Below, one piece after another: positions 20,041-36,470 of a stretch of DNA of 64,000 nucleotides; positions within the stretch are counted from its first letter, which is position 1; each line of letters starts with the position of its first letter. The stretch is from a virus. The stretch lies in the IMG/VR virus record IMGVR_UViG_2936984999_000007; one strand, written 5' to 3'. The position numbers were made by a program, and so were the translations under genes. The notes under the pieces are model-generated. The model saw only the letters and a program-made list of their open reading frames with translations. It made no database searches and was not told the origin of the DNA.

Positions 20041-20610
20041 ATGGGACGAAAGAAAAGTAATGCCAGGCCGATAGAGCGCGGCCGCAAGATCCATGTCAAT
20101 AAATACATCAACCAGCGTGGAAAAACAAAGCCGCACCGCAGATCAGAGGCATCCTGTAAACTGACATCGAAAGAACCTCAGTTTTACGAGTTGCCAGCAG
20201 ATCAGTGGCCGGCAACAAAGATACCGAAGCAGTATGAAATCTGGTTTGCAGAATTGGGAAACCATTATGGCACTTCGGTCCAGAGCGGAAACCGTCCGGT
20301 GCTGGTCATCAGCAACGATATGGCAAACCGCAATTCCCCAATCATCACGGTGATCCCGATGAGTTCTAAGCTGAAGAAGCTGGAGCTGCCGGTACACATT
20401 CCGGTCACCGGGAAAGACTGTGAAATGCTCCGGGATGAGTGTCTGGAAGAATCCATTCTGCTGGTGGAGCAGATCACGACCATTGACAAGATGGTTCTGT
20501 GCAACCGGCTCTGCCGTGTGACCTCGGCCAGGAAAAAGCAGGAGATCGAAGCTGCTGTTAAAAAGCAGTTTGCGATGCAGGCTTGTACGGGAAGGGAGGC
20601 GCAGGCATGA
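20041..20610 (+). CDS. MazF/EndoA (PemK-family) endoribonuclease toxin homologue with a ~60 aa basic N-terminal extension
   Basis: Residues ~63-170 align motif-for-motif with B. subtilis EndoA: EIWFAELG ... GNRPVLVISND ... NRNSP ... KLELPVHIPV ... LLVEQITTIDK. RBS GGAGGTGAT. No mazE-like gene adjacent. Confidence 0.75.
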   Translation: MGRKKSNARPIERGRKIHVNKYINQRGKTKPHRRSEASCKLTSKEPQFYELPADQWPATKIPKQYEIWFAELGNHYGTSVQSGNRPVLVISNDMANRNSPIITVIPMSSKLKKLELPVHIPVTGKDCEMLRDECLEESILLVEQITTIDKMVLCNRLCRVTSARKKQEIEAAVKKQFAMQACTGREAQA

Positions 20611-23036
20611 TGGACATCAAGAACATTCCGGGCAAGCTGAAAACGACCTGCAGCTTCTGTGTCTGGAAGTTTGAAAAGCGCAATGGACAGAAAACGAAGA
20701 TGCCGTACAACCCGGCAACGGGAGAACGGGCAAAGATCAATGACCTGCGTACATTTTCGGATTTCAAGAATACCCTCGTCACCTATGCGATGGGTGGTTA
20801 TGACGGAATCGGCATCGCAGTCGGAAACGGCATCGGTGCTTTTGATATCGACCACTGTATCCGGGAGGATGGTACGCTGAACGATACAGCGGATACTGTC
20901 CTTTCCATCTTTCCTACGGCTTACGTGGAAAAATCTCCATCCGGGAAAGGACTGCGAGGTTTCTTCTGTGTGCCGGAAGACTACGTCTACGACAAGACAG
21001 TCTACTACATCAATAACCGCAACAAGGGTCTGGAAGTGTATATGCCCGGTGCGACGAACCGCTTCGTCACCGTAACGGGAGATGTTTACCGCACAGGTGA
21101 GATCCCAAACGATGAAACGGCAATGACAACACTGCTGGACACGCTGATGAAGCGAAACAAGCAGGTGCAGCAGACCCATTTCCAGCACCATTCGTACTTG
21201 GATGATGATGCTGTTATCGCACACGCCAACGAAGCCAGCAACTCGGAAAAGTTTAAAAAACTCTTTGCCGGTGACTGGGAAGACCTCTACGGCAGCCAGT
21301 CGGATGCGGATATGGCATTGCTGTCGATCCTGGCATTCTGGTGTGGCTGCGATGAGGAGCAGATGGATCGCATCTTCCGTACATCGGGCTTGATGCGTGA
21401 TAAGTGGGATCGCAAGCAGGCTGGTTCGACCTATGGTGCGATCTCTATCCGTAACACGGTCAATACCTGTTCGGCTGTCTATATGCCGGTCAATGCGCAG
21501 GACATTGTGGATGAGGAATTTTCCAAGCTGGATGAGGATGATTATATCGAGTTTCAGCCGGATCTCACCAAGATCACGGTCACGCTGGAAGAAATGGCTC
21601 CGCACACAAATGCCCGGTATGGAAGAAATGAGATCGGCATGGGCAATATGTTTGCGGATTATTTCAAGCAGATTGCCCGGTACAACAGTGAGCGTAAAGG
21701 CTGGTATGTCTATGACGGCTCTGTCTGGCGGCCGGACAAAGGCAATCTCAAGGTGTCGGAACTGGCAAAGCTGCTGGCTGACAAGCTGTATGTGTTTGCC
21801 CTGACGATCATCGAAGAAGATGCCAGGAAGCGGTTCATCGACCGTGTCCGAAAGCTGCAACTGCGTAAGAACCGGGAAACGATGCTGAAAGATGCCATGT
21901 CCGTGTATCCGATCTCCATGCAGGCGTTCGACAGGAACAAGTATTTCTTCAACTGCAAAAATGGAACGCTGGATATGCGGACACTGGAATTCAGGGAGCA
22001 TCGGCCGGAGGATTATCTCACAATGGAATCCGGTATTACCTATGACCCAGATGCAGACTGCACACGCTGGCACTCGTTTATCAAGGAAGTCATGTGTGGG
22101 GATGCAGATCTGGCAGACTTCCTTCAGCGTTCTTTGGGATACGCCCTGACAGGAGACACCTCGCAGGAGTGTATGTTTATCCTTTACGGTGCCACTTCCC
22201 GAAATGGAAAAGGTACTGCAATGGAAACATTCCTGAAGATCATGGGCGACTATGGAAAGACATCAAATCCGGATATGCTGGCAGCTAAATTCCGTGGTGG
22301 GAACACAGGCGGACCTTCGGAAGAAGTGGCTCGTCTGGTCGGTTCCAGATTTGTAAATATCTCTGAGCCAGAGAAGAAGATCACATTCAATGCGGCTCTC
22401 GTAAAAAGAATGACCGGCAACGATACCATCAACGCCCGATTCCTAAATGAGAACAGCTTTGATTTTATACCAGTGTTCAAGATTTTTATCAATACGAACT
22501 ACCTGCCCAATGTCAATGATATGACCTTGTTCCAATCCGGCCGACTGAAAATCATACCGTTCAACCGTCACTTTGAAGAGGGAGAACAGGACCAGGGGCT
22601 GAAGGGGCAGTTTGCGAAGCCGGAGAACCTGTCAGGTATTTTCAACTGGTGCTTGGAAGGGTACAAGAAGTATTGTAAGCAGGGGCTTGAAGTTCCAGAT
22701 GCAGTTAAGAGAGCCACAGAGGATTATAAGGATGACTCTGACCGAATTGGGCAGTTCATCGAGGCGTGGATTGAAAAAGACGAGACTTCGGAACTCAGGA
22801 CATCTGCTGCGTACCAGTTGTACGCCAAGTGGTGCGAGGAAAACGGATACTCGTCCGAAAACCAGAAAAACTTCAAAAATGCCATCGGTGTGCATTTCAA
22901 AATAACGAGAAAACGTCCAAAAGACGGCGGTGGTCAAACAACGATGATTCTTGGTTGTCGATTCCGTGATGTTCAAGAAGGAGCAGAAGATTCAACCGTT
23001 CAGGATGCTTATAAACCAAAGGATGTGCTCCTTTGA
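20607..23036 (+). CDS. primase-polymerase / VirE-family primase with D5-like P-loop NTPase domain
   Basis: N-terminal prim-pol domain plus C-terminal P-loop (ILYGATSRNGKGTAMETFLK). Overlaps the mazF stop by 4 nt. Confidence 0.8.
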   Translation: MMDIKNIPGKLKTTCSFCVWKFEKRNGQKTKMPYNPATGERAKINDLRTFSDFKNTLVTYAMGGYDGIGIAVGNGIGAFDIDHCIREDGTLNDTADTVLSIFPTAYVEKSPSGKGLRGFFCVPEDYVYDKTVYYINNRNKGLEVYMPGATNRFVTVTGDVYRTGEIPNDETAMTTLLDTLMKRNKQVQQTHFQHHSYLDDDAVIAHANEASNSEKFKKLFAGDWEDLYGSQSDADMALLSILAFWCGCDEEQMDRIFRTSGLMRDKWDRKQAGSTYGAISIRNTVNTCSAVYMPVNAQDIVDEEFSKLDEDDYIEFQPDLTKITVTLEEMAPHTNARYGRNEIGMGNMFADYFKQIARYNSERKGWYVYDGSVWRPDKGNLKVSELAKLLADKLYVFALTIIEEDARKRFIDRVRKLQLRKNRETMLKDAMSVYPISMQAFDRNKYFFNCKNGTLDMRTLEFREHRPEDYLTMESGITYDPDADCTRWHSFIKEVMCGDADLADFLQRSLGYALTGDTSQECMFILYGATSRNGKGTAMETFLKIMGDYGKTSNPDMLAAKFRGGNTGGPSEEVARLVGSRFVNISEPEKKITFNAALVKRMTGNDTINARFLNENSFDFIPVFKIFINTNYLPNVNDMTLFQSGRLKIIPFNRHFEEGEQDQGLKGQFAKPENLSGIFNWCLEGYKKYCKQGLEVPDAVKRATEDYKDDSDRIGQFIEAWIEKDETSELRTSAAYQLYAKWCEENGYSSENQKNFKNAIGVHFKITRKRPKDGGGQTTMILGCRFRDVQEGAEDSTVQDAYKPKDVLL

Positions 23037-23045
23037 AGTGAAAAA

Positions 23046-23151
23046 CTGTAGCAGGTAGCAATTTGTAGCCTGATTTTCATATCCCTTTTTATTATTACTT
23101 TCTTTTATAGACTTCTATATGAAAAAGTATCTACAACCTGCTACTTGCTAC
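23046..23151. repeat. iteron-like element: 3 direct plus 3 inverted GTAGCA hexamers flanking a 57 bp AT-rich core (candidate origin or terminator)
   Basis: tGTAGCAgGTAGCAatttGTAGCc ... AT-rich ... cTACAAccTGCTACtTGCTACaaaaaaaa. Immediately 3' of the primase gene. Confidence 0.45.
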
Positions 23152-23338
23152 AAAAAAAACAAATAAGAGAATCCGAGGTCTGCTTTTTATCTTGGCGGCC
23201 CAATTTTTGAGAAATCCATTTTGTGAGATATAAATTTTGAGTTTCACCTGAAACAGAGCAGGCAACCTTTGTGGGAGCCTATTTGTGGGCATGGGCAAAG
23301 GCGGCCTGCTTTGTGATACAAGAAAGAGAGGACAGAAC

Positions 23339-24406
23339 ATGAGTAAGATTATCACCTGTGAACAGGTCAGCAACGGCCATCCTGATAAGATCTGTGACCA
23401 GATCGCAGATGCCATTGTGACCGACATTCTTCAGCATGACAAGCACGCCCGCGTGGCGATTGAGTGTCTGCTGAAAAAGAGCCAGCTCTTTATTGCTGGC
23501 GAAGTCACTACCGATTACCGCCCAAACTACAACCAGATCGTACACGATGTGTTCAATCGTATCGGTGCCGAAAAGCTGGGCTGGAACCTGACCGAGCTTC
23601 TTCGCATCGGCATTCTGGTGGACAAGCAGTCCCCGGACATTGCACTGGGTGTGGATAAGGGCGGTGCCGGTGACCAGGGAATCATGTATGGCTATGCCAC
23701 CAACGAGACGGCAGAGCAGATGCCGATTCCCTACATGGTCGCCACCAAGTTCCTGCAGCTTCTCAAGGCACATCCGTCTAAGATGTTCCGTGCAGATGCC
23801 AAGGCGCAGGTCAGCTACGATTACGACACCGGACGCATCACCACATTCCTCTGCTCTGTGCAGCACAGCCCAGATGTGGAGGTCAGCGACTTCCGGCACA
23901 TCATCGAATCCATGATGGTGCTTGCCGCCTGCGAGTATGGTCTGGACGGTGACTTCACGAAGCTGGTCAATCCGACCGGCCGTTTCGTTCTGGGCGGCAG
24001 CTACGCCGACTGTGGTGTGACTGGTCGGAAGCTGGCGTGCGATACCTACGGCGGCATTGGTCGCATGGGTGGCGGTGCTCTGAGCGGTAAAGACCCCACC
24101 AAGGTGGATCGCTCCGCAGCATACATGGCGAGGAAGATTGCCAAGGACATCGTGCAGGCGGGCTACGCTGACAAGTGCGAAGTCCAGCTGGCCTACGCCA
24201 TCGGTGTGGTACAGCCGGTAGGTGTGGCTGTGGAGTGCTTCGGTACTGAGCACCAGTCCCTTGACTTCATCGAAGCCTATGTCCATGACAGCTATGACCT
24301 GACCCCACAGGGTATCATCAAGCGGCTGGGACTGCTGGATGTAGATTACAACAAAGTCAGTGCTTACGGTCATTTCGGTAAGGCTGGTCTTCCGTGGGAG
24401 GACTGA
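23339..24406 (+). CDS. metK: S-adenosylmethionine synthetase (MetK)
   Basis: GHPDKICDQIADAIVTDIL and GAGDQGIMYGYATNET. Full-length alignment to MetK; RBS AGAGAGGA. Confidence 0.85.
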   Translation: MSKIITCEQVSNGHPDKICDQIADAIVTDILQHDKHARVAIECLLKKSQLFIAGEVTTDYRPNYNQIVHDVFNRIGAEKLGWNLTELLRIGILVDKQSPDIALGVDKGGAGDQGIMYGYATNETAEQMPIPYMVATKFLQLLKAHPSKMFRADAKAQVSYDYDTGRITTFLCSVQHSPDVEVSDFRHIIESMMVLAACEYGLDGDFTKLVNPTGRFVLGGSYADCGVTGRKLACDTYGGIGRMGGGALSGKDPTKVDRSAAYMARKIAKDIVQAGYADKCEVQLAYAIGVVQPVGVAVECFGTEHQSLDFIEAYVHDSYDLTPQGIIKRLGLLDVDYNKVSAYGHFGKAGLPWED

Positions 24407-24409
24407 CCT

Positions 24410-24769
24410 ATGCCGTACAGACCAAAGACACCGTGCCATCACCCCGGCTGCCCGGAGCTGGTGGAAGCCGGCCAGCTCTACTGTGAGAAGCACCTGCCTC
24501 TCCATCCAGAGGTGACCCGCCCGGCAGCGAAGCGTGGATACAACAGGCGGTGGCAGAAAGCCAGAAAGTCGTATCTGGAAGCTCATCCACTCTGTGTGCA
24601 GTGTGCCAAGCAGGGCAAGTACGTCCGGGCAACGGTTGTGGACCATATCATTCCACACCGTGGTGACCAGAAACTTTTCTGGGACCAGAATAACTGGCAG
24701 TCGCTCTGCAAAAGCTGCCACGATAAAAAGACGCTGACCGAAGACATCAACCCGCCCTACTCCTACTGA
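24410..24769 (+). CDS. HNH endonuclease
   Basis: VDHIIPHRGDQKLFWDQNNWQSLCKSCHDKKT with CxxC pairs. Confidence 0.8.
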   Translation: MPYRPKTPCHHPGCPELVEAGQLYCEKHLPLHPEVTRPAAKRGYNRRWQKARKSYLEAHPLCVQCAKQGKYVRATVVDHIIPHRGDQKLFWDQNNWQSLCKSCHDKKTLTEDINPPYSY

Positions 24770-25170
24770 CACCCCCACCGGGGGCCGGGGTCACTTCTCT
24801 ACGGTGAAGTCACACGGAGACCGGTGCGCCCTTTTCCGTGAAAAACCGCAAAATTCATAGGCCGGGGGTCAGAGGAATAACGGCGCAAAATGAAACAGGA
24901 AAATGTACAGGCATCGGAGCTTCGGTTTCGGTGCCATTCTTTTTCCCCGAAATGAACCAAAGTGTGTGAAACCTCTCGTAAACAGGGAGCTTTCGCACAT
25001 TTTAGCTTGTTCCGGGAGGAGCAGGGGCGAGCGAGAATCGGCCGCCGCAACAACAATCCAACCTGGCGGGGCGGTGCCGATTTCCACTTCGCCGCTTTTC
25101 GTATGAATTATGAGATTTTTCTAAGAAACCGCCGAAGAAACGGCGAAAAATGAGAGTGAGGTGAGGGCAG

Positions 25171-25479
25171 ATGGAAGACTACACGGCTGAGATGATCAAG
25201 GACATGGCGTTTTCGTTCTGTCCTCAGTGCGGCACGGCAATCATACCAAACCACAAAGGCAGACCACGGAAGTTCTGCTCTCCGGAATGCCGGTCACGGT
25301 GGAACAACACCCATCCGAAGCCGGAGAACTGGAAGACCGTGCGGTCGAAGATCTGCCCGGTGTGCGGCAGGGAGTTTTCCTATCGGCATCAGTACGGGTT
25401 GGAACGGAAATATTGCAGCCGGGCTTGTGCCAACCGGGGCAGAGGAAAGGAGGCAAAAGATGCAGCCGTTGAGTATTGA
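25171..25479 (+). CDS. tandem TRASH/zf-FCS zinc-ribbon protein
   Basis: Two CxxCG ... GRPRKFCSxEC / ERKYCSRAC motifs. Confidence 0.5.
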   Translation: MEDYTAEMIKDMAFSFCPQCGTAIIPNHKGRPRKFCSPECRSRWNNTHPKPENWKTVRSKICPVCGREFSYRHQYGLERKYCSRACANRGRGKEAKDAAVEY

Positions 25480-25963
25480 ACGGGATGTCAGAAGAAATGG
25501 CATCCGTATGGATTGTGTTTTTGAAGGAACGGCGTTTGATACTGCCAGGGAGCAGGTGAGGACGCTGCGGCTTTCTGGAACGAAACTTTCTCAGATCGCA
25601 GAGCAGACGGGAATGCCTGTGGAACAGGTGATGGATTACTGCCGGGAACTGGGATTGCCGGAAATAGGAAGCTGCCATCTGGTGCCGCCGGGCCGAGTGA
25701 AAGAACGCAGATGTCCAGTCTGTGGAAGAATCATCGGGCAGAGTGGAAGAGGTGCGCCGAGAAAATATTGTTCGGATGAGTGCTATGCCGAATATGAACG
25801 AAGGAATTATAAACGGGAAAAGGCTGGCAGGGTAGCATTCTGTCAGAACTGTGGCCGTCCGTTTACGGCAATCTGCGAAAGCAGGAGTCAGCGGATGTTC
25901 TGCAGCAGAAATTGTTATTTTGAATTTCGATATGGAATGAAGGAGGCGAAGGAGCATGAGTGA
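25460..25963 (+). CDS. HTH plus tandem TRASH/zf-FCS zinc-ribbon protein (paralogue of the upstream gene)
   Basis: LSQIAEQTGMPVEQV HTH-like segment, then CPVCG ... APRKYCSDEC and CQNCG ... RMFCSRNC. Confidence 0.5.
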   Translation: MQPLSIERDVRRNGIRMDCVFEGTAFDTAREQVRTLRLSGTKLSQIAEQTGMPVEQVMDYCRELGLPEIGSCHLVPPGRVKERRCPVCGRIIGQSGRGAPRKYCSDECYAEYERRNYKREKAGRVAFCQNCGRPFTAICESRSQRMFCSRNCYFEFRYGMKEAKEHE

Positions 25964-26183
25964 AAAGGTGATCGGTGTGTACCCATTGTTCAACACCGGG
26001 GGTATTTGTGTACATGCAATCGACTATGCGGAAGATAAGGTCCTGGCATCTGTGAACGGGGAAAACCCGGAATGGTGCGAGATGGCAGAGAAACCGCAGC
26101 CAGAAGAAGATGGCAGTGAAATGGAGTCGGGCTTTTTGTTCGGCTCCTTTTTCGTGCCGTTCTCCGGGGTCATACGCATGTGA
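25956..26183 (+). CDS. small hypothetical protein
   Basis: ORF in the operon gap; weak support. Confidence 0.25.
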   Translation: MSEKVIGVYPLFNTGGICVHAIDYAEDKVLASVNGENPEWCEMAEKPQPEEDGSEMESGFLFGSFFVPFSGVIRM

Positions 26184-26204
26184 ATCTAAAACGGGAGGGC
26201 TTAC

Positions 26205-27473
26205 ATGAAAGCGACTGCTGAACTAAAGATGCTGCCGGTGTCCGTACTCAAGCCGGCTGCATACAATCCCCGGAAAAAGTTGAAGCCGGGGGATAAAGAG
26301 TACGAGAAAATCAAGAACTCCATCACGGAGTTCGGCTTCGCAGATCCTTTGGTGGTCAATGCAGACATGACGATCATCGGCGGCCATCAGAGACTGACTG
26401 TTGCAATGGAACTGGGATACACAGAAGTGCCTTGTGCGGTGGTGGACATCGACAAGACCAGAGAAAAAGCTCTGAACATCGCACTCAACAAGATTACGGG
26501 TGCATGGGATGATTCTCTGCTGGCGGATCTTTTGAAGGACATCGAGGATTCCGATTTCGATCTCGGAAAGACGGGTTTTGACCCGCCTGAGATTGAGACT
26601 CTGTTCAACAAGGTCCACAGCAAAGAGGTCAAGGAAGATGACTTCGATGTGGAATCCGAGTTGAAGCAGCCATGCTTCTCCAAAGAGGGTGACCTCTGGC
26701 ATCTGGGAAAGCATATCGTTCTGTGCGGTGATTCTACCAAAGCAGAATGCTACAACACCCTGATGGACGGAACCAAGGCAAATCTGGTCCTTTCCGATCC
26801 CCCTTATAACGTGGATGTGGAAGAGACTGCCGGTAAGATCATGAATGACAACATGGGCGATTCGGAATTCTACCAGTTCCTTCTGGCAGCGTTCCAGCAG
26901 ATGCACGACCATCTTGCAGACGACGGTTCCATCTACATCTTCCATGCAGATACGGAAGGGCTGAACTTTAGAAAGGCATTCAAGGATGCCGGGTTCTACC
27001 TGTCCGGGTGCTGTATCTGGAAGAAGAATGCGCTGGTGCTGGGCCGTAGTCCTTACCAGTGGCAGCACGAACCGTGTCTCTACGGCTGGAAGCAGAAGGG
27101 GAAGCACCAGTGGTATTCCGACCGGAAGCAGACGACCATATGGGAGTATGACCGGCCGAAGTCTAACAAGGATCATCCGACCATGAAGCCCATCGGCCTG
27201 ATGAGCTATCCAATCCGCAATTCCACTATGACCAACGGCATCGTCCTCGATCCGTTCCTCGGCAGCGGCTCGACCCTGATCGCCTGTGAGGAGACCGACC
27301 GTGTGTGCCGGGGCATCGAGCTGGACCCGAAGTTCGTGGATGTGATCGTGAAGCGGTACATCGAACACAGCGAAGGTCATTACGATGATGTGTATGTCAT
27401 CCGGGATGGGCAGAAGCTGAAGTTCGAGGAGGTGGCGACCTTCGAGCCGGAAAGCGAGGATGCCGATGCCTGA
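26205..27473 (+). CDS. ParB-like nuclease domain fused to an N6-adenine/N4-cytosine DNA methyltransferase (beta class)
   Basis: ParB N-domain (GGHQRLTVAMELG). Motif IV SDPPYN precedes motif I DPFLGSGST. Confidence 0.8.
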   Translation: MKATAELKMLPVSVLKPAAYNPRKKLKPGDKEYEKIKNSITEFGFADPLVVNADMTIIGGHQRLTVAMELGYTEVPCAVVDIDKTREKALNIALNKITGAWDDSLLADLLKDIEDSDFDLGKTGFDPPEIETLFNKVHSKEVKEDDFDVESELKQPCFSKEGDLWHLGKHIVLCGDSTKAECYNTLMDGTKANLVLSDPPYNVDVEETAGKIMNDNMGDSEFYQFLLAAFQQMHDHLADDGSIYIFHADTEGLNFRKAFKDAGFYLSGCCIWKKNALVLGRSPYQWQHEPCLYGWKQKGKHQWYSDRKQTTIWEYDRPKSNKDHPTMKPIGLMSYPIRNSTMTNGIVLDPFLGSGSTLIACEETDRVCRGIELDPKFVDVIVKRYIEHSEGHYDDVYVIRDGQKLKFEEVATFEPESEDADA

Positions 27474-28239
27474 TGTGAAATGTGTTCTCATTCACGACAA
27501 CTTCCAGAACTTCAAGTCTTATAACATCCCCAAGGCACAGCTGGTGATCGCAGATATTCCGTACAACATCGGTACAGATTTCTACGCCAGCCGGCCGGAC
27601 TGGTATGTGGATGGCGATAACAAAAACGGGGAGAGCAGCAAGGCGAGGAAGGCGGCGTTCAATACCGACTTCACCTTCAACATTGCAGAGTATTTCCACT
27701 TCTGCAACCGCCTGCTGAAGAAAGAACCCGGCACGGGCGAGAAGGATGCGCCGTGCATGATCGTGTTCTGTGCGTTCCAGCAGATCCCGAAGGTGATCAC
27801 CGAAGCAGAGAAATACGGCTTCAAGAATTATATCCCTCTGGTGTTCTGCAAGAACTACAGTCCGCAGGTGCTCAAAGCCAACATGAAGATTGTGGGTGCA
27901 ACAGAGTATGCGCTGGTGCTGTATCGGGGAAAGCTCCCGAAGTTCCGTAATCTCGGTGAGGACGGAAAGCCCCACATGATCTTCAACTGGTTTGACTGGA
28001 AGAGGGATGGCAAGGAATATCCGAAGATCCATCCTTCCCAGAAACCGATCTCTGTGCTGAAACGACTGATCGAGACCTTTACAGATGAGGGCGATGTGGT
28101 CATTGACCCCTGCGCCGGCAGCGGTTCCACGCTGAGAGCAGCAAGAGAACTGGGGCGCAACAGCTACGGATTTGAAGTGTCCAGAGATTTTTACCGGAAA
28201 GCAAATGAGCAGATGCTCGGAGAGGAGGCTTCCGCATGA
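27460..28239 (+). CDS. DNA methyltransferase (amino-MTase, beta class)
   Basis: ADIPYN ... DPCAGSGST. Confidence 0.75.
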   Translation: MPMPDVKCVLIHDNFQNFKSYNIPKAQLVIADIPYNIGTDFYASRPDWYVDGDNKNGESSKARKAAFNTDFTFNIAEYFHFCNRLLKKEPGTGEKDAPCMIVFCAFQQIPKVITEAEKYGFKNYIPLVFCKNYSPQVLKANMKIVGATEYALVLYRGKLPKFRNLGEDGKPHMIFNWFDWKRDGKEYPKIHPSQKPISVLKRLIETFTDEGDVVIDPCAGSGSTLRAARELGRNSYGFEVSRDFYRKANEQMLGEEASA

Positions 28240-30491
28240 GCACAGAACAGAATAAGACTTTGACCCTCGGCAGCCTCTTTGATGGCTCCGGGGGTTTTCC
28301 GTTAGGCGGTCTTCTGACTGGGCAGATCACTCCGCTGTGGAGCAGCGAGATCGAGCCCTTTGCCATCCGGGTCACGACCAAACGTCTACCACAGGTGAAG
28401 CACTACGGAGATGTATCCGTCATCAGCGGCGCAGACCTGCCGCCTGTGGACATCATCACCTTTGGCAGTCCCTGTCAGGATATGTCCATCGCGGGTAAGC
28501 GGGACGGTCTGGATGGTTCACGGTCCAGTCTGTTTTACGAAGCAATCCGAATCGTGAAGGAAATGAGGTGTAAGACCAATGGAGAAAAACCAAGATTTAT
28601 CGTGTGGGAGAATGTGCCAGGGGCCTTCTCCTCAAACAAAGGACAGGACTTCAAAGCAGTCCTCGAAGCCGTCATCGGTGTTAAAGAACCGGCCGCCTCG
28701 GTGCCTGCGCCTGAGAAGAAAGGATGGCCCGACGCTGACTACTACGTGGGAGACGGATGGAGCGTCGCATATCGAGTTCTTGATGCACAATGGTGGGGCG
28801 TTCCCCAAAGACGAAAACGTATCTACCTTGTCGCAGATTTTGCAGGTCAGAGTGCCCCAGAAATATTATTTAACTCCGAGGGCTTGTCTCGGTATTCTGC
28901 GGAGGGCTTCCGTGCGTGGCAAAGAGCTGCCGCCGGTGTTGAAAGCGGCACTGGAGAGGCAGGCTGCAACGGAGCAGGAGGACGGATCTGTCTGAACGAC
29001 CAGGGCGGAGAGCGGATGGATGTGACAGAGGAAGTGACAGCCACCCTCCGTGCGGAGGCACATCATCCCCCGTGTGTTATGGAAGCAGCTGGTTTCTGTA
29101 CCGAGCATTCCGCAAATGCCAGAAGCATCGGATATGAAGAGGAGCGGTCACCGACTCTCCGAGCTGGTGTCGTACCGGCCGCCATCGCACTGGAAAATCA
29201 TCCTGCTGACAGCCGGGTGAAGATTTCCGAGGATGATAAGGTGCAGACACTGACAAGCCGGTGTGGTACGGGTGGCGGTAATGTCCCGATGGTTATGGAT
29301 GCTGTTGAAAATTCAGTGGAAAGCCAGGTGAAAGATGTTGAAAACTCCCCGGCGGTCACGTTAAAGATCCGTTCCGGATGTGAAGGTGGCGGAAAGGGAG
29401 CCATCTGGCAGGAAGAAAAGTCTGCCACTCTTGGCTGCAACAACGACCAGACACTGTTCGTTCCGAAATGCTATGGTGTCTGCTCAAAAGCCAGCCACTC
29501 CATGATGTCCGACAATCCGCACAGCGGTTTTTATGAAGCGGAGACCTCCCGGACACTGGATCGCAGCGGTGGAGACCCGACTTGCAATCAGGGCGGCATC
29601 TGTGTGGTAGAGCCGGTCGCCTTTACTCAGAATCAGAGGGATGAAGTCCGGGATCTGGGAGATAAGTCGGCGGCACTGGCAGCAGAGCCGGGGATGAAGC
29701 AGCAGACATTCGTGGCACAGCCGGAAGATGTGACAGCTTTCCATGTGAACCAGCGCAATGAGCTGATTGACCTGCATGGCAAGTCCGGGGCTTTGATGGC
29801 GACCCGGAGTGATCAGATGCAGACCTTTGTCCTGCAGGGCAACATGATCGGTCGCAAAGATGAGAATGGCCCACAGGGGGATGGTGTCAATGAGGATGTC
29901 TGCTTTACACTGGATGCCACTGACCGCCATGCAGTCTGCGCACCGGAGGATGTGTATGCCATGACCACCGGCTCCTATATGCAGGTGGCAAAAGAAGTCG
30001 CACCGACTCTGATGGCACGGGATTACAAAGACCCGACCACCATCGCACCGGCACCACATCTGAACGAGGGTGTGGCTGGTACTGTGGCGACCGGGGCACA
30101 TCCCAGCGGCTTCAATGGGCAGGATGCTTTCAATGACCGTCTGGTCATCGACAACCCGGAGGCACAGTCCACCCCTGTGACCTACACCGTCCGCCGCCTT
30201 ACACCGACCGAGTGTGCCAGACTGCAGGGCTTCCCGGACTGGTGGTGCAGAGACCTTGGAACGGAGAATCCGACCGAGGAAGAGCTGGCGTTCTGGACAG
30301 ATGTGTTTGAAACGCACCGCAAGATCGTGACCCATGCCAAGAAGCCGAAGACGGAGAAGCAGATCCGGAAATGGCTGGCTGACCCGTATACGGATTCGGC
30401 AGAGTACCGTATCTGGGGTAACGGCATTTGTTTGGCCAACGCATTTTTTGTTCTGGCCGGCATCGCATGGTGTGCAGGTCTGGAAGAATAA
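28236..30491 (+). CDS. DNA cytosine-5 methyltransferase, unusually long (751 aa) with an expanded variable region
   Basis: Motif I FDGSGGF, IV GSPCQDMS, VI ENVPG, VIII QRRKRIY, IX/X RRLTPTECARLQGFPD. About 420 aa between VIII and IX, containing several TL/RDYKDP-type segments and internal repeats. Confidence 0.85.
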   Translation: MSTEQNKTLTLGSLFDGSGGFPLGGLLTGQITPLWSSEIEPFAIRVTTKRLPQVKHYGDVSVISGADLPPVDIITFGSPCQDMSIAGKRDGLDGSRSSLFYEAIRIVKEMRCKTNGEKPRFIVWENVPGAFSSNKGQDFKAVLEAVIGVKEPAASVPAPEKKGWPDADYYVGDGWSVAYRVLDAQWWGVPQRRKRIYLVADFAGQSAPEILFNSEGLSRYSAEGFRAWQRAAAGVESGTGEAGCNGAGGRICLNDQGGERMDVTEEVTATLRAEAHHPPCVMEAAGFCTEHSANARSIGYEEERSPTLRAGVVPAAIALENHPADSRVKISEDDKVQTLTSRCGTGGGNVPMVMDAVENSVESQVKDVENSPAVTLKIRSGCEGGGKGAIWQEEKSATLGCNNDQTLFVPKCYGVCSKASHSMMSDNPHSGFYEAETSRTLDRSGGDPTCNQGGICVVEPVAFTQNQRDEVRDLGDKSAALAAEPGMKQQTFVAQPEDVTAFHVNQRNELIDLHGKSGALMATRSDQMQTFVLQGNMIGRKDENGPQGDGVNEDVCFTLDATDRHAVCAPEDVYAMTTGSYMQVAKEVAPTLMARDYKDPTTIAPAPHLNEGVAGTVATGAHPSGFNGQDAFNDRLVIDNPEAQSTPVTYTVRRLTPTECARLQGFPDWWCRDLGTENPTEEELAFWTDVFETHRKIVTHAKKPKTEKQIRKWLADPYTDSAEYRIWGNGICLANAFFVLAGIAWCAGLEE

Positions 30492-30715: not shown

Positions 30716-31843
30716 ATGTTGAAGTTTGAACTAAATGTAGAGGAGCGCAAAACACTGGCAAAGCGGATGGAGGAGCTGACAGGCATCCATCCTTACTACA
30801 CCAAGGCGCCTCGGTATGCGTATGACATCGGAAATTACACCATTGACCGGGATGGCAACCTGCTGGTGGAGGCGGAAAATGCAGATCTGGAATTGCTGAC
30901 TACGCTGATGAACGAAGGTCTGATCCGCGGCGGCGAGGATGTGGATGCAGAGACTTTGCAGGAAACTGCAGACGAACAGCCTGCGGTAGACCTTGCCGAG
31001 GGTGTCCAGATGATTCCGGCAGTACATCCAAATGAGCAGGAGACCTGTGAAGGGGATTCAGAAGAAGCCGAGGAAGATGGGGAATCCGAAATGGAGAGTG
31101 CAGAGCAAATTCCATCGGAAGAAGGTGAGGAACAGCCTGTGGCAGAGGAAGCAATCCCTCTGGATGCGGATTTTTCTTTCCCGATCAGCCAGCATAACGG
31201 CGTATCGCTTCGCAACCTGGTCAATCTGATCTACAGCAGAGGGGAACTCGTCAGCAAGGCAACGGACGGCATTTTCCTTGCCGATAAGGGGCTGGTGGAT
31301 GCCTTGAAAGATGACAGCTGCACTTATGCGGTAGCAAATTTCATTCATGCGCTCAAAGAGTATGAAGAACAGCATGGTGCTTCCCTGGAAGGCTTGACGA
31401 TCACAGATGAGAAAGTTACCTTTACAGGTTTCCCGACTGCACCGGATTATGACCACCTGACTGCATTCGGACACCTTGCGATTCTGATGAACCAGCAGGC
31501 TATCAGCCAGAAGCGGATTCAGGCAAAAGAGGTGAACGATTCCAATGAGAAATACGCTTTGCGAACTTGGCTTCTGCGCCTTGGCATGAATGGCCCGGAC
31601 TTCAAGCAGACCAGAAAGATCTTGATGGAGAACCTTTCCGGCCATGCGGCTTTCCGCACAGATGAGGAAGCACAGAAGTTCCTTGCAAGGGAAAAGGCAA
31701 AACGGGATGCCCTGAAAGCCGCGAAACAGGCGGCACAGGAGGGCAGTGCCTCCGCTGGGGAAACGATTGCATCAGCAGATGCCGAGCCGACACAGCTCGG
31801 CTGTGGGGCAGACACGGCGCAGATGCTGGAGGCGGGAGCGTAA
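30716..31843 (+). CDS. acidic protein whose C-terminal ~45 aa module is homologous to the amidoligase C-terminus
   Basis: NEKYALRTWLLRLGMNGPDFKQTRKILMENLSGHAAFR here, versus NEKYAMRCWMLRLGFIGDEFATAREILLRNMEGNASWR in the 32076-33014 gene. Confidence 0.45.
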   Translation: MLKFELNVEERKTLAKRMEELTGIHPYYTKAPRYAYDIGNYTIDRDGNLLVEAENADLELLTTLMNEGLIRGGEDVDAETLQETADEQPAVDLAEGVQMIPAVHPNEQETCEGDSEEAEEDGESEMESAEQIPSEEGEEQPVAEEAIPLDADFSFPISQHNGVSLRNLVNLIYSRGELVSKATDGIFLADKGLVDALKDDSCTYAVANFIHALKEYEEQHGASLEGLTITDEKVTFTGFPTAPDYDHLTAFGHLAILMNQQAISQKRIQAKEVNDSNEKYALRTWLLRLGMNGPDFKQTRKILMENLSGHAAFRTDEEAQKFLAREKAKRDALKAAKQAAQEGSASAGETIASADAEPTQLGCGADTAQMLEAGA

Positions 31844-31999
31844 GCTCTCAAGCCCCCAGTGGGGGCCGGAAAATATGCGAGACCCTCTTCCATTGTACTG
31901 ATATTAGCTCTGAAAATGTACATTATCAAGCGGATAAACTGCAGAAATGTACACGATCATTCCTCTCAATATTTGTCGAATATATGTTCTTTTATGGCC

Positions 32000-32028
32000 T
32001 TGCTATTATGTGCACCTGACGGTAATAT
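32000..32028 (+). promoter_or_regulatory. cassette promoter copy 1 (TTGCTA-17-TAATAT plus conserved leader GCACATACCGAAAGGGAAAAC)
   Basis: Member of the 7-copy family; drives the amidoligase. Confidence 0.55.
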
Positions 32029-32075
32029 GCACATACCGAAAGGGAAAACAAGGAAAAAGCAAAGGAGAACATACC

Positions 32076-33014
32076 ATGAACGATAAAACAAGAGAGCAGA
32101 TTGAAGCCATGAAGAACCAGACCATCGGAGTTGAGATCGAGATGAACAACATCACCAGAGAAAAAGCGGCAAGAAAGGTCGCTGATTACTTCGGAACCAG
32201 AGCATGGAACGCCGCCAGCGAGTACGGATATTACAGCTGGGCTTGCAAAGACCAGCAGGGCAGGGTTTGGAAATTTCAGAGGGATGTGAGCATCTACGGG
32301 CCAGACGCAGAAAAATGCGAACTGGTCACCCCGATCCTCACCTACGACGACATCGAACCCCTGCAGGAAATCATCCGACTGCTCCGCAAGGCAGGCGCAA
32401 AGAGCGGCCCAAGCCGCGGATGCGGGGTCCACATCCACATTGGCAAAGGCGACCACACCGCAAAGACCATCCGCAACCTTGTGAACATCATGGCGGCACA
32501 CGAACAGCAGATCGGAAGAGCCATCCGGATTGATGCAGGACGCACCGGACAATATTGCCGGGTAGTCGACCACCGCTTCCTCGACCGGCTGAACCGCGAG
32601 AAGCCGACCACCATGCGCAAGCTGGAAGACATCTGGTACGAAGGCAACGGTTCCAGCTGGGAAAACCGGAATGTCCACTACAATTCAAGCCGATACCATA
32701 TGCTGAACCTCCATGCCACCTTTACAAAAGGGACCATTGAATTCCGCCTTTTCCAATTCGCAGACCCAGCGGACGGAAAGCGCAACGGACTGCATGCCGG
32801 TGAGATGAAAGCTTACATCCAGCTTTGCCTCGCAATGAGCCAGCTTGCCAAGATGGTCAGAACAGCAAGCCCGAAGCCCCAGCAGACCGACAACGAAAAG
32901 TACGCGATGCGGTGCTGGATGCTGAGGCTGGGATTCATCGGGGATGAATTTGCAACGGCAAGGGAGATTCTTCTGCGGAACATGGAGGGCAACGCATCCT
33001 GGCGGAACAAATAA
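32076..33014 (+). CDS. amidoligase (glutamine-synthetase-like, Amidoligase_2 family)
   Basis: IGVEIEMN start, YGPDAEKCELVTP, GCGVHIHIG. RBS AAAGGAGAAC. Confidence 0.6.
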   Translation: MNDKTREQIEAMKNQTIGVEIEMNNITREKAARKVADYFGTRAWNAASEYGYYSWACKDQQGRVWKFQRDVSIYGPDAEKCELVTPILTYDDIEPLQEIIRLLRKAGAKSGPSRGCGVHIHIGKGDHTAKTIRNLVNIMAAHEQQIGRAIRIDAGRTGQYCRVVDHRFLDRLNREKPTTMRKLEDIWYEGNGSSWENRNVHYNSSRYHMLNLHATFTKGTIEFRLFQFADPADGKRNGLHAGEMKAYIQLCLAMSQLAKMVRTASPKPQQTDNEKYAMRCWMLRLGFIGDEFATAREILLRNMEGNASWRNK

Positions 33015-33081
33015 GCCAGGATGCACGGGCACCTTTTGGGCGGGAAACCGCCCTTGAGGTGGTAGAAGGAGGTGCAGGTTT

Positions 33082-33318
33082 ATGAAAAGCACGTTAAAAA
33101 ATGAAAACACACCGGGTGGCAGAGCCTTTAAGGTGACCATCACCGAGACCTACCAGAGGACGGTGACCATTTATGAATCTGAGATGAAAGAGCCGACCGT
33201 GGAGGAAGCCCAGCGTGTGGCAGAGGACTGGTGGCAGGACAGCCAGATCGAGCTTGGGACAGAGGATTTCCAGGGCGTGGAATTCACTGGCAGGGAGGAC
33301 GGTGAGGCAGATGTTTGA
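33082..33318 (+). CDS. small hypothetical protein
   Basis: RBS GGAGGTG. Confidence 0.3.
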   Translation: MKSTLKNENTPGGRAFKVTITETYQRTVTIYESEMKEPTVEEAQRVAEDWWQDSQIELGTEDFQGVEFTGREDGEADV

Positions 33319-33832
33319 ACTGATCAGCCGAGTCCCATCCAAATATTACCTTGCCTATGGAAGCAACCTCGACATGGAGCGGATGGGAAAGAGATGCCCT
33401 TACGCTGTGGTGGTCGGCACGACCGAGATCAAGGGCTACCGGCTCCTGTTCAAAAAGAGTAAGACCGGCTGCTATGCCACCATCGAGCAGGACGCCAATG
33501 AAAGCGTACCGGCGGTGGTCTGGAAGCTCTCGGAATATGATGAGCTCCTGCTGGACCGGTACGAGGGTTGCCCAAGATACTATTACAAGAAGCAGTTCCA
33601 GCTTCCGGTCTGGAACCTGAACGGGAACCGCATGAAAAAGGCAAAGCCCTGCACCGCTTATGTGATGCACGAGGACCGGCGGCTTGGCTGCCCGGATGCC
33701 GAGTATTTTGAACTGCTGCACGGCGGATACAGCGACTGGGAATTTCCGCTGGACACACTGAAGCGTGGACTGGCAGCCAGCATCGGAAGGGCGGAAGCCA
33801 TCCGGTATCTGAAGAAGCGGCAGATGATGTAA
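33311..33832 (+). CDS. gamma-glutamyl cyclotransferase (GGCT/AIG2-like)
   Basis: YLAYGSNL motif near the N-terminus. RBS GGGAGGACGGTGAGG. Confidence 0.65.
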   Translation: MFELISRVPSKYYLAYGSNLDMERMGKRCPYAVVVGTTEIKGYRLLFKKSKTGCYATIEQDANESVPAVVWKLSEYDELLLDRYEGCPRYYYKKQFQLPVWNLNGNRMKKAKPCTAYVMHEDRRLGCPDAEYFELLHGGYSDWEFPLDTLKRGLAASIGRAEAIRYLKKRQMM

Positions 33833-33962
33833 GAGTACACGATCACAGGGAAAAAACATTGTGCAGTATATGATGCTCATCGGCCTTGATAAATCAGGGC
33901 AAAAGAGTGATATATACCATACCGCCAGACAAGAGCGGAGAAAACCGAAGGGAGAGATTCAA

Positions 33963-34442
33963 ATGAAGAACAAGAAATATTACATCGCCTACGGCAGCAA
34001 CCTGTCGGTGGAGCAGATGGCATACCGGTGTCCGGATGCAAAAATAGCAGGACAGGCGGTGCTGGCAGGCTGGGAGCTTTTGTTCCGAGGCTGCGCTACC
34101 ATCGCACCGAACCCGAAGAAGAACACGCCGGTTCTGGTGTGGGAGATCTCGGAAAGGGACGAAGAGAACCTCGACCTCTATGAGGGCTACCCGAACTACT
34201 ACCGCAAGGAAGACCTGAACATCGAACTGCTCCGGGAAGGGGCAGAGCCGGAGATGGTGACCGCAATGGTCTACATCATGGAGAACGACTTCGGACATCG
34301 CGCACCGAGCCGGTATTACTACAAAGTTTTGCATGACGGCTACAAGGCATTCCACTTCCCGATGCACATCCTCGAAGGTGCACTGAAGGAGTGCATGGAT
34401 AAGGATGCCGCCCAGAAGATGATCGAGGAGGTGCAGGCATGA
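33963..34442 (+). CDS. gamma-glutamyl cyclotransferase (GGCT/AIG2-like), second paralogue
   Basis: YIAYGSNL motif. Confidence 0.65.
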   Translation: MKNKKYYIAYGSNLSVEQMAYRCPDAKIAGQAVLAGWELLFRGCATIAPNPKKNTPVLVWEISERDEENLDLYEGYPNYYRKEDLNIELLREGAEPEMVTAMVYIMENDFGHRAPSRYYYKVLHDGYKAFHFPMHILEGALKECMDKDAAQKMIEEVQA

Positions 34443-36183: not shown

Positions 36184-36360
36184 ATGGCTGATTGGAGAAC
36201 ATGGAAAAAAGGGAGAAAGACAACATGGCACTGGAACGAATTCGATGGAAGCGGAAGCCGGGAAGGGATCATCACCGAGGTTCATGAAGACCACGCGATC
36301 ATGGAAGCAGACGGCATGCACCTTTGGATCGACGATGACACAGCAGAGATGTTCAGCTAA
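36184..36360 (+). CDS. small hypothetical protein (58 aa), cassette gene A
   Basis: RBS AAAGGAGGACAGCAGA. Terminator hairpin CGGGGAGG-gaaa-CCTCCCCG at 36363-36390. Confidence 0.4.
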   Translation: MADWRTWKKGRKTTWHWNEFDGSGSREGIITEVHEDHAIMEADGMHLWIDDDTAEMFS

Positions 36361-36441
36361 GAAAAACGGGGAGGGAAACCTCCCCGGATAAACACATAAA
36401 TCCACCAGATCAAGGTGCAGATGATCGTGTACTTTAGCCGC

Positions 36442-36470
36442 TTGATAGTATCCGGCAGTGACGGTAATAT
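36442..36470 (+). promoter_or_regulatory. cassette promoter copy 3 (TTGATA-17-TAATAT)
   Basis: Conserved upstream box GATCGTGTACTTTAGCCGC. Confidence 0.55.

What the first reader, a model, noticed from the sequence alone, without database searches (positions are those of the whole stretch)
23339..30491. Methylation island: phage-borne SAM synthetase (MetK) next to HNH, two TRASH zinc-ribbon proteins and three DNA methyltransferases
A near-full-length metK sits in the phage early region. It is followed by an HNH endonuclease, two paralogous proteins with tandem TRASH/zf-FCS zinc ribbons (one also carries an HTH), a ParB-fused amino-MTase, a second amino-MTase, and a 751 aa C5-cytosine MTase.

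A phage supplying its own SAM synthesis next to three methyltransferases suggests high-flux self-methylation to escape host R-M systems. It could also serve to counter SAM-depletion defenses.

The C5-MTase has about 420 aa between motifs VIII and IX, holding several TL- and RDYKDP-like segments and internal repeats. This is reminiscent of multispecific phage MTases that carry several target-recognition domains.
Basis: partly seen in the sequence, partly recalled or inferred. Interest (0 to 1): 0.7.

Follow-up and report, generated by a model that had tools for sequence, protein, structure and literature searches.

The report
Gut phage DNA-methylation gene cluster
A prophage of a very common human-gut phage lineage carries its own enzyme for making the methyl donor SAM next to three DNA methylases; this pairing is already known, but one methylase carries about nine swappable DNA-recognition cassettes, far more than in the classical examples.

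Summary
MetK (355 aa) passes the NCBIfam metK cutoff and keeps 15 of 15 catalytic and ligand residues. HNH, two paralogous zinc-ribbon proteins, a ParB-fused amino-methylase, a second amino-methylase and a 751-aa C5-methylase all check out. The TRASH/zf-FCS label is not supported by any Pfam model, and the HTH is weak.

The element is a prophage of the Ca. Heliusvirales / Streptococcus Javan-type lineage. MetK plus C5-methylase is already published as its commonest auxiliary gene pair, and 132 deposited phage records carry this short phage-type MetK. The island itself is therefore not new.

The C5-methylase is the new part. Between motifs VIII and IX lie nine cassettes of about 37 aa, each with a TL-type motif. 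The same cassette types occur in other orders in relatives, and singly in roughly 415-aa enzymes. Each is under purifying selection (array dN/dS 0.05-0.08). Near-identical phages show ten architectures of 8-11 cassettes. One cassette is homologous to a recognition unit of the Bacillus phage multispecific methylases.

Best reading: broad pre-emptive self-methylation against many host restriction systems. MetK feeding that methylation is plausible but unproven. No methylome or structure was obtainable.

The parts
23339..24406 (+). Phage-type SAM synthetase (MetK), 355 aa
   Evidence: Three Pfam MetK domains. TIGR01034 393 bits against a cutoff of 309. phrog_1569 at 1e-133. 15/15 catalytic and ligand residues match E. 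coli MetK, and three deletions plus a C-terminal truncation are shared with the Streptococcus phage Javan32 MetK.
24410..24769 (+). HNH endonuclease, 119 aa, starting 4 nt after the metK stop
   Evidence: PF01844 at 4.5e-10. phrog_144 at 1.9e-38. The MetK-HNH pair is conserved in relatives.
24910..24935 (+). Terminator-like hairpin with a T-run, in the 400-bp GC-rich spacer after HNH
   Evidence: Consensus scan only; sequence read. Function not shown.
25171..25479 (+). Zinc-ribbon protein, 102 aa, two CxxC...[FY]CSxxC units
   Evidence: phrog_2308 at 3e-17. The same domain is fused to HNH in phrog_1271. Pfam gives only sub-threshold treble-clef hits.
25460..25963 (+). Paralogous zinc-ribbon protein with a weak N-terminal HTH. 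167 aa from the ATG; the mechanical ORF starts at a GTG at 25427.
   Evidence: Paralogy E=7e-12. phrog_2308 at 7e-22. HTH_7 only at E=0.076. The 167-aa form is seen in locus L013, which has an identical MetK.
25956..26183 (+). Conserved small ORF, 75 aa, unknown function
   Evidence: No family hit. A 72-73-aa ORF sits at the same position in relatives L007 and L011.
26205..27473 (+). ParB_N-fused beta-class amino-methylase, 422 aa (SDPPY ... FLGSGST)
   Evidence: PF01555 at 8e-29 and PF02195 at 1e-8. phrog_498 at 8e-189. PADLOC MTase_II PDLC03229 at 572 bits.
27460..28239 (+). Second beta-class amino-methylase, 259 aa (ADIPY ... CAGSGST)
   Evidence: PF01555 at 8e-25. phrog_67 at 1e-47. Present in only part of the population.
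28236..30491 (+). Orphan C5-cytosine methylase, 751 aa. Motifs: I 15-20, IV 77-82 (Cys80), VI 125-127, VIII 191-195, IX 653-667, X 728-730.
   Evidence: PF00145 at 1e-40 in three stretches. TIGR00675 at 140 bits. Alignment to M.HhaI. PADLOC oMTase PDLC03715 at 915 bits.
28971..30185 (+). Array of nine TRD-like cassettes (residues): M1 246-283, M2 284-320, M3 321-355, M4+5 356-410, M6 411-460, M7 461-498, M8 499-535, M9 536-572, M10 573-650
   Evidence: Clean 32-40-aa indels among homologs that are more than 90% identical. Cassettes are reshuffled in 50%-level representatives and occur singly in enzymes of 413-433 aa. Array dN/dS is 0.05-0.08. Near-identical phages show ten architectures.
29841..29951 (+). 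Cassette M9 (NMIGRKDENGPQGDGVNEDVCFTLDATDRHAV...), homologous to a recognition unit of the Bacillus phage multispecific methylases
   Evidence: The M9 profile scores 16.5-17.2 bits on 'PAFTVNTIDRHGVAIG' of phi3T, SPR, rho11s and H2. The best of 1000 shuffles scored 4.1.

Best explanation
This is the DNA-modification module of a temperate siphophage of the Ca. Heliusvirales / Streptococcus Javan-like lineage, integrated in a gut Clostridia genome. It sits between the replication genes and the packaging genes.

Shown by sequence:
- MetK is a catalytically intact, phage-lineage SAM synthetase.
- There are two beta-class amino-methylases and one C5-methylase, none with a partner restriction enzyme.
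- The C5-methylase has one catalytic core and an array of nine self-contained cassettes of about 37 aa, each of target-recognition-domain type and each under purifying selection.
- Closely related phages gain, lose, duplicate and reorder these cassettes.

Inferred:
- As in the Bacillus phage enzymes M.SPRI and M.Phi3TI, each cassette works with the same catalytic core to methylate its own short motif.
- Progeny DNA would then leave the cell already methylated at many motifs and be immune to many Type II restriction systems in the next host.
- Cassette turnover would retune that protection range.

More weakly inferred:
- MetK tops up SAM while many genome copies are methylated during the burst.
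- The zinc-ribbon proteins are DNA-binding partners or regulators of the methylase operon.
For: MetK is intact and belongs to a phage lineage:
- Domain and cutoff evidence.
- 15/15 key residues are kept and the indels are shared with Javan32 MetK. It is 59% identical to Javan32 MetK and 45% to E. coli MetK.

Cassette array:
- Ten TL/AL anchors.
- Homologs of 710-825 aa that are more than 90% identical differ by clean one-cassette indels.
- In 68 full-length 50%-level representatives, the VIII-IX region spans 120-706 aa. Its length tracks the TL count (r=0.79, 36 aa per TL).
- Cassette types occur in different orders and combinations. Each of M1, M3 and M4+5 occurs as the only window-type cassette in an enzyme of 413-433 aa.
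- dN/dS is 0.05-0.08 for the array and 0-0.29 per cassette. The non-cassette linker (residues 201-245) gives 0.7-1.2.
- 56 methylase ORFs from IMG/VR loci, nearly all with MetK 91-100% identical to the window's, fall into ten architectures of 8-11 cassettes.
- M9 is homologous to a unit of the four classical multispecific enzymes. Their tandem-TRD organisation is summarised in PMC8936443.

Context:
- Synteny MetK-HNH-Zn ribbon-ParB methylase-C5 methylase holds in relatives.
- All 59 loci with at least 7 kb downstream of metK carry a C5-methylase and an amino-methylase.
- No restriction endonuclease gene was recognised in the island.
- Gut genomes average 2.3 m5C motifs each, against about 0.9 in two other microbiomes (PMC11954522).
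Against: - No methylome, no biochemistry and no usable structure. Both AlphaFold runs gave pLDDT 28-33.
- Bacillus phage enzymes are known to carry inactive 'pseudo' recognition domains (from my own knowledge: Lange et al., Nature 1991). The number of active cassettes could therefore be well below nine.
- Only M9 has detectable homology to a proven recognition unit. The M3 and M9 profiles find no M.HhaI or M.HaeIII recognition domain in the PDB.
- If M9 specifies GGCC, the strong GGCC depletion in the phage (O/E 0.51) is unexpected.
- The MetK-methylase link is only an association and is not obligate.
- A related prophage metK has a lysogen phenotype.
Confidence: 0.6

Rival explanations
1. MetK is mainly a lysogenic-conversion or auxiliary metabolic gene. 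Expressed from the prophage, it changes host SAM-dependent physiology (AI-2, polyamines, surface and biofilm traits). Its position beside the methylases is only shared placement in a variable region.
For: - In S. agalactiae prophage 12/111phiA, deleting metK or relB-metK removed autoaggregation, long chains and biofilm, and plasmid-borne metK partly restored them (PMC8223999). That is a Javan-like prophage; Javan-type TerLs are up to 77% identical to the window's TerL.
- MetK-HNH is followed by a terminator-like hairpin and a 400-bp spacer, so it may be a separate transcription unit.
- MetK and cassette number are uncoupled in relatives.
Against: - MetK lies inside the co-oriented replication and modification block, not in the lysogeny or moron region.
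- It always travels with methylases in the sampled loci and in Streptococcus phages.
- The complementation in the Streptococcus study was partial and confounded by secondary mutations.
Confidence: 0.25
2. Most cassettes are structural spacers or inactive pseudo-domains, so the enzyme is mono- or bispecific.
For: - Pseudo recognition domains exist in the Bacillus phage enzymes (my own knowledge). In one search, rho11s carries 'TLTTMGEGH' where phi3T and H2 have 'TLTTMGGGH'.
- There is no experimental motif list for this family.
Against: - Every cassette has low dN/dS (0-0.29), whereas the adjacent linker evolves almost neutrally.
- Cassette sequences are highly conserved across 50%-level representatives.
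- Single cassettes are sufficient in short family members.
Confidence: 0.2
3. MetK counters a host defence that depletes or sequesters SAM, or restores SAM consumed by such a system.
For: Only an analogy with phage NAD+ reconstitution pathways (my own knowledge) and the existence of SAM-AMP signalling in type III CRISPR systems (bioRxiv 10.1101/2025.04.28.651013, listed).
Against: - Two literature searches found no SAM-depleting defence.
- SAM is a cofactor of host Type I restriction-modification and BREX, which T3 defeats by destroying SAM (bioRxiv 10.1101/2023.02.27.530186). Extra SAM should therefore aid those defences.
Confidence: 0.07
4. The cassette array acts together as one large DNA-binding domain that gives relaxed, near context-free cytosine methylation.
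For: - So many short-motif cassettes would in practice methylate a large share of cytosines.
- No structure is available to exclude cooperative binding.
Against: - Cassettes are reordered, duplicated and deleted freely, and they work alone in short enzymes. That fits independent units rather than one cooperative fold.
- Site frequencies in the phage are strongly non-uniform.
Confidence: 0.08

Closest known systems
Multispecific C5-methylases of Bacillus phages SPR, phi3T/SPbeta, rho11s and H2 (and M.BssHII)
   Same: - Phage-borne orphan C5-methylase with one catalytic core.
- Enlarged region between motifs VIII and IX, made of contiguous TL-containing recognition units.
- Units differ between related phages.
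- One unit (M9) is homologous to their shared 'AFTVNTIDRHGV' unit.
   Different: - Nine cassettes here and 8-11 in the population, in a 457-aa region. The Bacillus enzymes have 2-4 TL units in 191-284 aa.
- The catalytic core is only about 23% identical to M.Phi3TI and lacks its zinc-finger-like insertion between motifs IV and VI.
- The host range is gut Clostridia.
- Specificities are untested.
Phage-type MetK of Streptococcus prophages (Javan phages, phi1207.3, 12/111phiA) and of Ca. Heliusvirales
   Same: - Short 345-360-aa MetK with the same three deletions and C-terminal truncation.
- 56-61% identical.
- Same genomic slot between the primase/helicase and the methylases/terminase.
- MetK and C5-methylase are reported as the commonest auxiliary genes of the order.
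   Different: Nothing essential: this is one more member. The Streptococcus and some NatCom phages pair it with a 426-432-aa SPbeta-type methylase instead of the long array.
ParB_N-fused beta-class amino-methylases of phages (PHROG 498; PADLOC MTase_II PDLC03229)
   Same: Full-length match to both profiles, with the DPPY-then-FxGxG motif order.
   Different: In some relatives ParB_N and the methylase are separate genes, or the fusion is broken. The target sequence is unknown.
Phage T3 SAMase (SAM lyase)
   Same: A phage enzyme that manipulates the host SAM pool in the context of restriction-modification.
   Different: The direction is opposite: T3 destroys SAM to disable SAM-dependent defences, whereas this phage makes SAM. 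The proteins are unrelated.

Membership tests
S-adenosylmethionine synthetase (MetK, TIGR01034) | Three-domain MetK architecture scoring above the curated equivalog cutoff | tested here: met
   Pfam N, M and C domains all pass. TIGR01034 393.1 bits against a cutoff of 309.4.
S-adenosylmethionine synthetase (MetK, TIGR01034) | Catalytic and ligand residues: GHPDK, GAGDQG, the GGGAFSGKD-type loop, and the Asp/Lys/Arg set | tested here: met
   15/15 residues are identical to E. coli MetK. The loop reads GGGALSGKD. The gating loop is 5 aa shorter.
S-adenosylmethionine synthetase (MetK, TIGR01034) | Makes SAM from ATP and methionine | not testable with these tools
   Needs an enzyme assay or metK complementation.
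C5-cytosine DNA methylase (PF00145) | Ordered motifs I, IV (PCQ with catalytic Cys), VI (ENV), VIII (QxRxR), IX and X | tested here: met
   FDGSGG 15-20, GSPCQD 77-82, ENV 125-127, QRRKR 191-195, RRLTPTECARLQGFP 653-667, GNG 728-730.
Multispecific C5-methylases (SPR/phi3T type) | Several contiguous recognition domains between motifs VIII and IX of one catalytic core | tested here: met
   Nine TL-type cassettes in 457 aa, with boundaries defined by natural indels.
Multispecific C5-methylases (SPR/phi3T type) | Each recognition domain is autonomous and exchangeable | tested here: met
   Comparative evidence only. Cassettes are reordered and combined freely, occur singly in short enzymes, and are each under purifying selection. 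No mutagenesis was possible.
Multispecific C5-methylases (SPR/phi3T type) | One enzyme methylates several unrelated target sequences | not testable with these tools
   Needs a methylome of the cloned gene or restriction-protection assays.
Multispecific C5-methylases (SPR/phi3T type) | Sequence relationship to the Bacillus phage enzymes | tested here: inconclusive
   The core is only about 23% identical. One cassette of nine (M9) matches a shared unit at 17 bits, against at most 4.1 in shuffles; the others show no significant match.
Beta-class amino-methylases (PF01555) | The N6_N4_Mtase profile, with D/SPPY before the FxGxG SAM-binding motif | tested here: met
   Both proteins pass the Pfam cutoff. 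SDPPY...FLGSGST and ADIPY...CAGSGST can be read.
TRASH / zf-FCS zinc fingers | Match to the Pfam TRASH or zf-FCS models | tested here: not met
   Neither appears even at E<=10. The best hits are sub-threshold DUF2256, DUF2116 and YacG. Only the C-x2-C...[FY]CS-x2-C motif resembles zf-FCS.
Ca. Heliusvirales phages | TerL homology and the shared marker gene set (polymerase, helicase-primase, exonuclease, SSB, capsid and others) | tested here: inconclusive
   Gene order and content match annotated Heliusvirales genomes. The MTase and MetK best hits are NatCom Heliusvirales genomes. The TerL best hits are Streptococcus Javan phages at 77%. No formal TerL tree was built.

The most novel reading that the evidence does not exclude
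The 751-aa enzyme is a hyper-multispecific C5-methylase in which most of its nine cassettes (8-11 in the population) each confer a different target motif. The cassette array would then be a recombining 'anti-restriction repertoire' that one of the most prevalent human-gut phage lineages reshuffles at strain level to track the restriction systems of its hosts. The phage MetK would supply the extra SAM this requires.
Probability: 0.4. Interest if true: 0.65.

Novelty: new variant of a known kind. Interest (0 to 1): 0.45.

Why it matters
The island itself is ordinary for this phage lineage. What may matter is the scale and turnover of the recognition-cassette array.

- **Scale.** If most cassettes are active, this would be the broadest single-enzyme methylation specificity I know of.
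- **An old open question.** How one catalytic core serves many recognition domains has been unresolved since the 1980s. Here nature supplies a deletion and insertion series (variants of 710, 751, 783, 798 and 821 aa) that assigns motifs to cassettes almost for free.
- **Tool value.** Assigned cassettes would form a ready-made library of portable 5mC specificity modules.
- **Ecology.** It would help explain how a temperate phage order stays so prevalent across restriction-rich gut Clostridia.
- **MetK.** The shared shortening of the MetK gating loop is a testable lead on whether the phage enzyme escapes product inhibition.

Tried and rejected
- **Structure.** AlphaFold2 on the methylase failed twice, once with 26 close homologs and once with 34 homologs down to 68% identity. 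Mean pLDDT was 27.6 and 32.8, with the array entirely below 50. No fold search was run.
- **Recognition-domain matches in the PDB.** Profiles of cassettes M9 and M3 found no M.HaeIII, M.HhaI or other recognition domain. My recollection that M.HaeIII carries 'EPAFTV' could not be confirmed.
- **Other cassettes against the Bacillus phage enzymes.** Nothing scored above the shuffled controls except M9.
- **SAM riboswitch upstream of metK.** No Rfam match at gathering score over the whole window, and none at E<=1 over 22900-25300. No tRNAs were found.
- **Restriction-site avoidance as a proxy for specificity.** GGCC has O/E 0.51, CCWGG 0.38, GGWCC 0.34 and CGCG 0.30. CCGG (0.99, 487 sites), AGCT and TCGA are not avoided. 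This cannot be interpreted without the host genome background.
- **DNA repeats at cassette junctions.** Only 6-nt microhomology was found at the M7/M8 'QTFV' joints.
- **TRASH/zf-FCS and HTH calls.** Not supported by Pfam.
- **MetK tree against the host's own metK.** Not done. No host metK sequence was reachable, and the search output lists only the 120 best hits, which were all of the short phage type.
- **HNH as a restriction partner of the methylases.** Rejected. It is a 119-aa HNH matching phage HNH families, with no PADLOC restriction-enzyme evidence in the island.

Full report
**What is there**

The window is a prophage.

- Host-type genes (an AraC regulator and dTDP-4-dehydrorhamnose epimerase) fill the first ~1 kb (73-1043); the ORFs between there and the ImmA/Cro-type switch at 2742-4000 are uncharacterised.
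- Next come an ImmA/Cro-type repressor pair and an HsdS-half plus HsdM-like methylase.
- A replication block follows: DUF2800 exonuclease, Enc34-type SSB, PolA, SNF2 helicase, a PemK-like toxin and a D5-type primase-helicase.
- The flagged island comes next, then an amidoligase/GGACT/DUF4314/Nmad4 block, then TerS and TerL and further large co-oriented ORFs that were not annotated here (from their size and position probably portal, capsid, tape-measure and tail genes).

**Lineage and prior knowledge**

The nearest deposited genomes for the methylase and MetK are 'NatCom' phages from human faeces, classified as Ca. Heliusvirales. The TerL is 77% identical to that of Streptococcus Javan / phi-Ssu prophages.

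[quoted passage not shown] In the phage collection, 132 records carry this MetK. Ninety of them are Streptococcus phages, where it has long been annotated as SAM synthetase; phi1207.3 is one example.

Javan32 has the same order: primase-helicase, helicase, MetK, adenine methylase, C5-methylase, TerS, TerL. The 'methylation island with a phage metK' is therefore real but already known at the annotation level. It is mislabelled 'peptidase' in the NatCom records and 'unknown function' in PHROG 1569.

**MetK**

- The 355-aa protein passes the NCBIfam metK equivalog cutoff, 393 bits against 309.
- It aligns end to end with E. coli MetK structures at E=1e-91.
- All 15 catalytic or ligand residues checked are conserved: H15, D17, K18, E43, E56, Q99, D119, K166, F231, D239, R245, K246, K266, K270 and D272 in chain numbering.
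- It shares three deletions with the Streptococcus phage MetK: 5 aa in the active-site gating loop, plus 4 aa and 3 aa elsewhere. Both also stop right after 'PWE'.
- The two phage enzymes are 59% identical to each other and 45-48% identical to E. coli MetK.

This points to an old phage lineage of MetK, not a recent capture from the host. A tree that includes the host's own metK could not be built. No riboswitch precedes the gene.

**Small proteins**

The two zinc-ribbon proteins are paralogs (E=7e-12) of PHROG 2308. The same domain is found fused to HNH nucleases in PHROG 1271. Their [FY]CSxxC motif looks zf-FCS-like, but no Pfam TRASH or zf-FCS model matches even at E<=10, and the HTH is marginal. 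I call them treble-clef zinc-ribbon DNA-binding proteins of unknown role. One or two copies always sit just upstream of the methylases.

**The C5-methylase**

The catalytic motifs are all present. Motifs VIII and IX are separated by about 457 aa, compared with about 105 aa in M.HhaI.

Ten TL/AL dipeptides lie 23-42 aa apart. Homologs more than 90% identical range from 709 to 825 aa. They differ by clean 32-40-aa insertions or deletions, each carrying one such motif. These indels define nine cassettes in the window protein, M1 to M10 with M4+5 counted as one.

Across one-per-50%-identity representatives, 3917 hits have E<1e-30. In the 68 full-length ones:

- The VIII-IX region spans 120-706 aa.
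- Its length tracks the TL count (r=0.79), at 36 aa per extra TL.
- The same cassette types appear in other orders and combinations. Examples are M7...M2-M3...M9, M3-M5-M6-M2, and M7-M1-M2-M1-M3-M6-M9.
- Enzymes of 413-433 aa carry a single window-type cassette: M3, M4+5 or M1.
- At least nine further recurrent cassette types exist, by a crude clustering.

**Selection on the cassettes**

In three pairwise codon comparisons the array has dN/dS 0.05-0.08, as low as the catalytic domain (0.09). Each cassette lies between 0 and 0.29. The 45-aa linker before the array gives 0.7-1.2. The cassettes are therefore functional, not decaying filler.

**Population turnover**

An IMG/VR scan with MetK returned 80 loci, most with MetK 91-100% identical to the window's. 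One locus (L013) has an identical MetK and the same methylase lengths.

All 59 loci with at least 7 kb downstream carry a C5-methylase and an amino-methylase. Their 56 full C5 ORFs (43 distinct proteins) fall into ten architectures of 8-11 cassettes. The differences are:

- presence or absence of M7, M8 and three extra cassettes (X1 to X3);
- duplication of M3 or M8.

These loci are close relatives. This shows fast cassette turnover; it is not independent evidence of co-occurrence.

**Link to the classical enzymes**

I retrieved M.Phi3TI, M.SPRI, M.Rho11sI and M.H2I. Their variable regions (191-284 aa) hold 2-4 TL units. PMC8936443 summarises them as tandem recognition domains that give several target sequences.

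A profile of cassette M9 (consensus SMIGRxDKNGPQGSGVNEDVSFTLNTxDRHAVAY) scores about 17 bits on 'PAFTVNTIDRHGVAIG' in all four enzymes. The best of 1000 shuffles scored 4.1.

That is the only unit common to all four. From memory, all four methylate GGCC, so M9 may be a GGCC-type domain. This is inference only:

- the profile does not find M.HaeIII in the PDB;
- GGCC is depleted in the phage (O/E 0.51).

The other cassettes have no detectable counterpart. The catalytic core is only about 23% identical to M.Phi3TI. PADLOC already holds a 719-position 'orphan methyltransferase' model that matches at 915 bits, so the family is catalogued even if it has not been interpreted.

**How it most likely works**

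The sequence shows one catalytic core, many independent and conserved recognition cassettes, two more orphan amino-methylases, and no recognisable restriction enzyme.

By analogy with the Bacillus phage enzymes, I infer that each cassette directs methylation of its own short motif on replicated phage DNA. Virions would then enter the next host pre-protected against many Type II systems, and cassette turnover would adjust the range.

A rough count bears on SAM demand. Four palindromes alone (GGCC, CCGG, AGCT, GCGC) occur 140, 487, 274 and 107 times in 61 kb. That is about 2000 methyl groups per genome, or about 2x10^5 per 100-genome burst. This is of the order of a bacterial SAM pool (from my own knowledge, approximate). 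A SAM top-up is therefore plausible.

It is not demonstrated:

- A Heliusvirales phage with a seven-to-eight-cassette methylase lacks MetK.
- Others pair MetK with a 432-aa SPbeta-type methylase.
- A related Streptococcus prophage metK alters lysogen aggregation and biofilm (PMC8223999).
- No SAM-depleting defence turned up in the literature.

**Verdict**

The island is a known feature of a known phage lineage. The cassette array of the C5-methylase is a new variant of a known kind (multispecific phage methylases), notable for its size and strain-level turnover. It is directly testable with one cloning-plus-methylome experiment.

Noticed in passing
window 4216-6343 (+): A half-size type I specificity subunit (223 aa) is followed by an HsdM-like gamma-class N6-adenine methylase (487 aa). 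No HsdR was seen. They lie in the lysogeny/moron region and make a fourth methylase in this prophage.
   Followed up: partly
window 20041-20610 (+): A PemK/MazF-like toxin ORF overlaps the start of the primase-helicase gene, with no obvious antitoxin. It is conserved at the same place in relatives and in NatCom Heliusvirales genomes.
   Followed up: partly
window 30716-34906 and 38326-38748 (+): An amidoligase-associated 375-aa protein, Amidoligase_2, two GGACT/AIG2 cyclotransferases, DUF4314 and an Nmad4 'nucleotide modification associated' protein always lie between the methylases and TerS in relatives. This may be a second modification or peptide-ligation system of unknown substrate.
   Followed up: partly
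window 36357-38434 (-): Four minus-strand ORFs (240, 218, 104 and 139 aa) sit in an otherwise plus-strand genome. They have no Pfam, PHROG or PADLOC hit, and nothing corresponding appears in the gene calls of relatives L007 and L011. This may be an inserted moron.
   Followed up: partly
L007 and L008, 21202-22466: In relatives carrying the 821-aa methylase, a 766-aa serine recombinase (Resolvase + Recombinase) directly follows TerS, where the window has TerL.
   Followed up: no
L009, 8499-12466: The identical 821-aa C5-methylase, with its ParB_N and N6_N4 methylase neighbours, sits among bacterial polysaccharide-synthesis genes with no MetK or phage genes. The methylase cassette therefore also exists outside an intact prophage.
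   Followed up: no
L010 (MT836278.1) against window 28236-30491: The methylase gene is mosaic. The N-terminal catalytic domain is highly diverged (dS 2.6, dN 0.245), while the cassette array is close (dS 0.57, dN 0.03). This implies recombination between catalytic cores and arrays.
   Followed up: partly
L093 11998-13044; L094 11998-13044; PHROG 1569: The phage MetK is annotated 'peptidase' in the NatCom GenBank records and 'unknown function' in PHROGs, although it passes the metK equivalog model.
   Followed up: yes
window 2701-64000: Short-palindrome usage is very uneven. GGCC (O/E 0.51), CGCG (0.30), ACGT (0.47), CCWGG (0.38) and GGWCC (0.34) are depleted. CCGG (0.99, 487 sites), AGCT and TCGA are not.
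   Followed up: partly
L012, 8721-10011: In one relative the ParB-methylase fusion is split into 321-aa and 97-aa ORFs, probably a pseudogene. In L007 the ParB_N domain and the methylase are separate genes.
   Followed up: no
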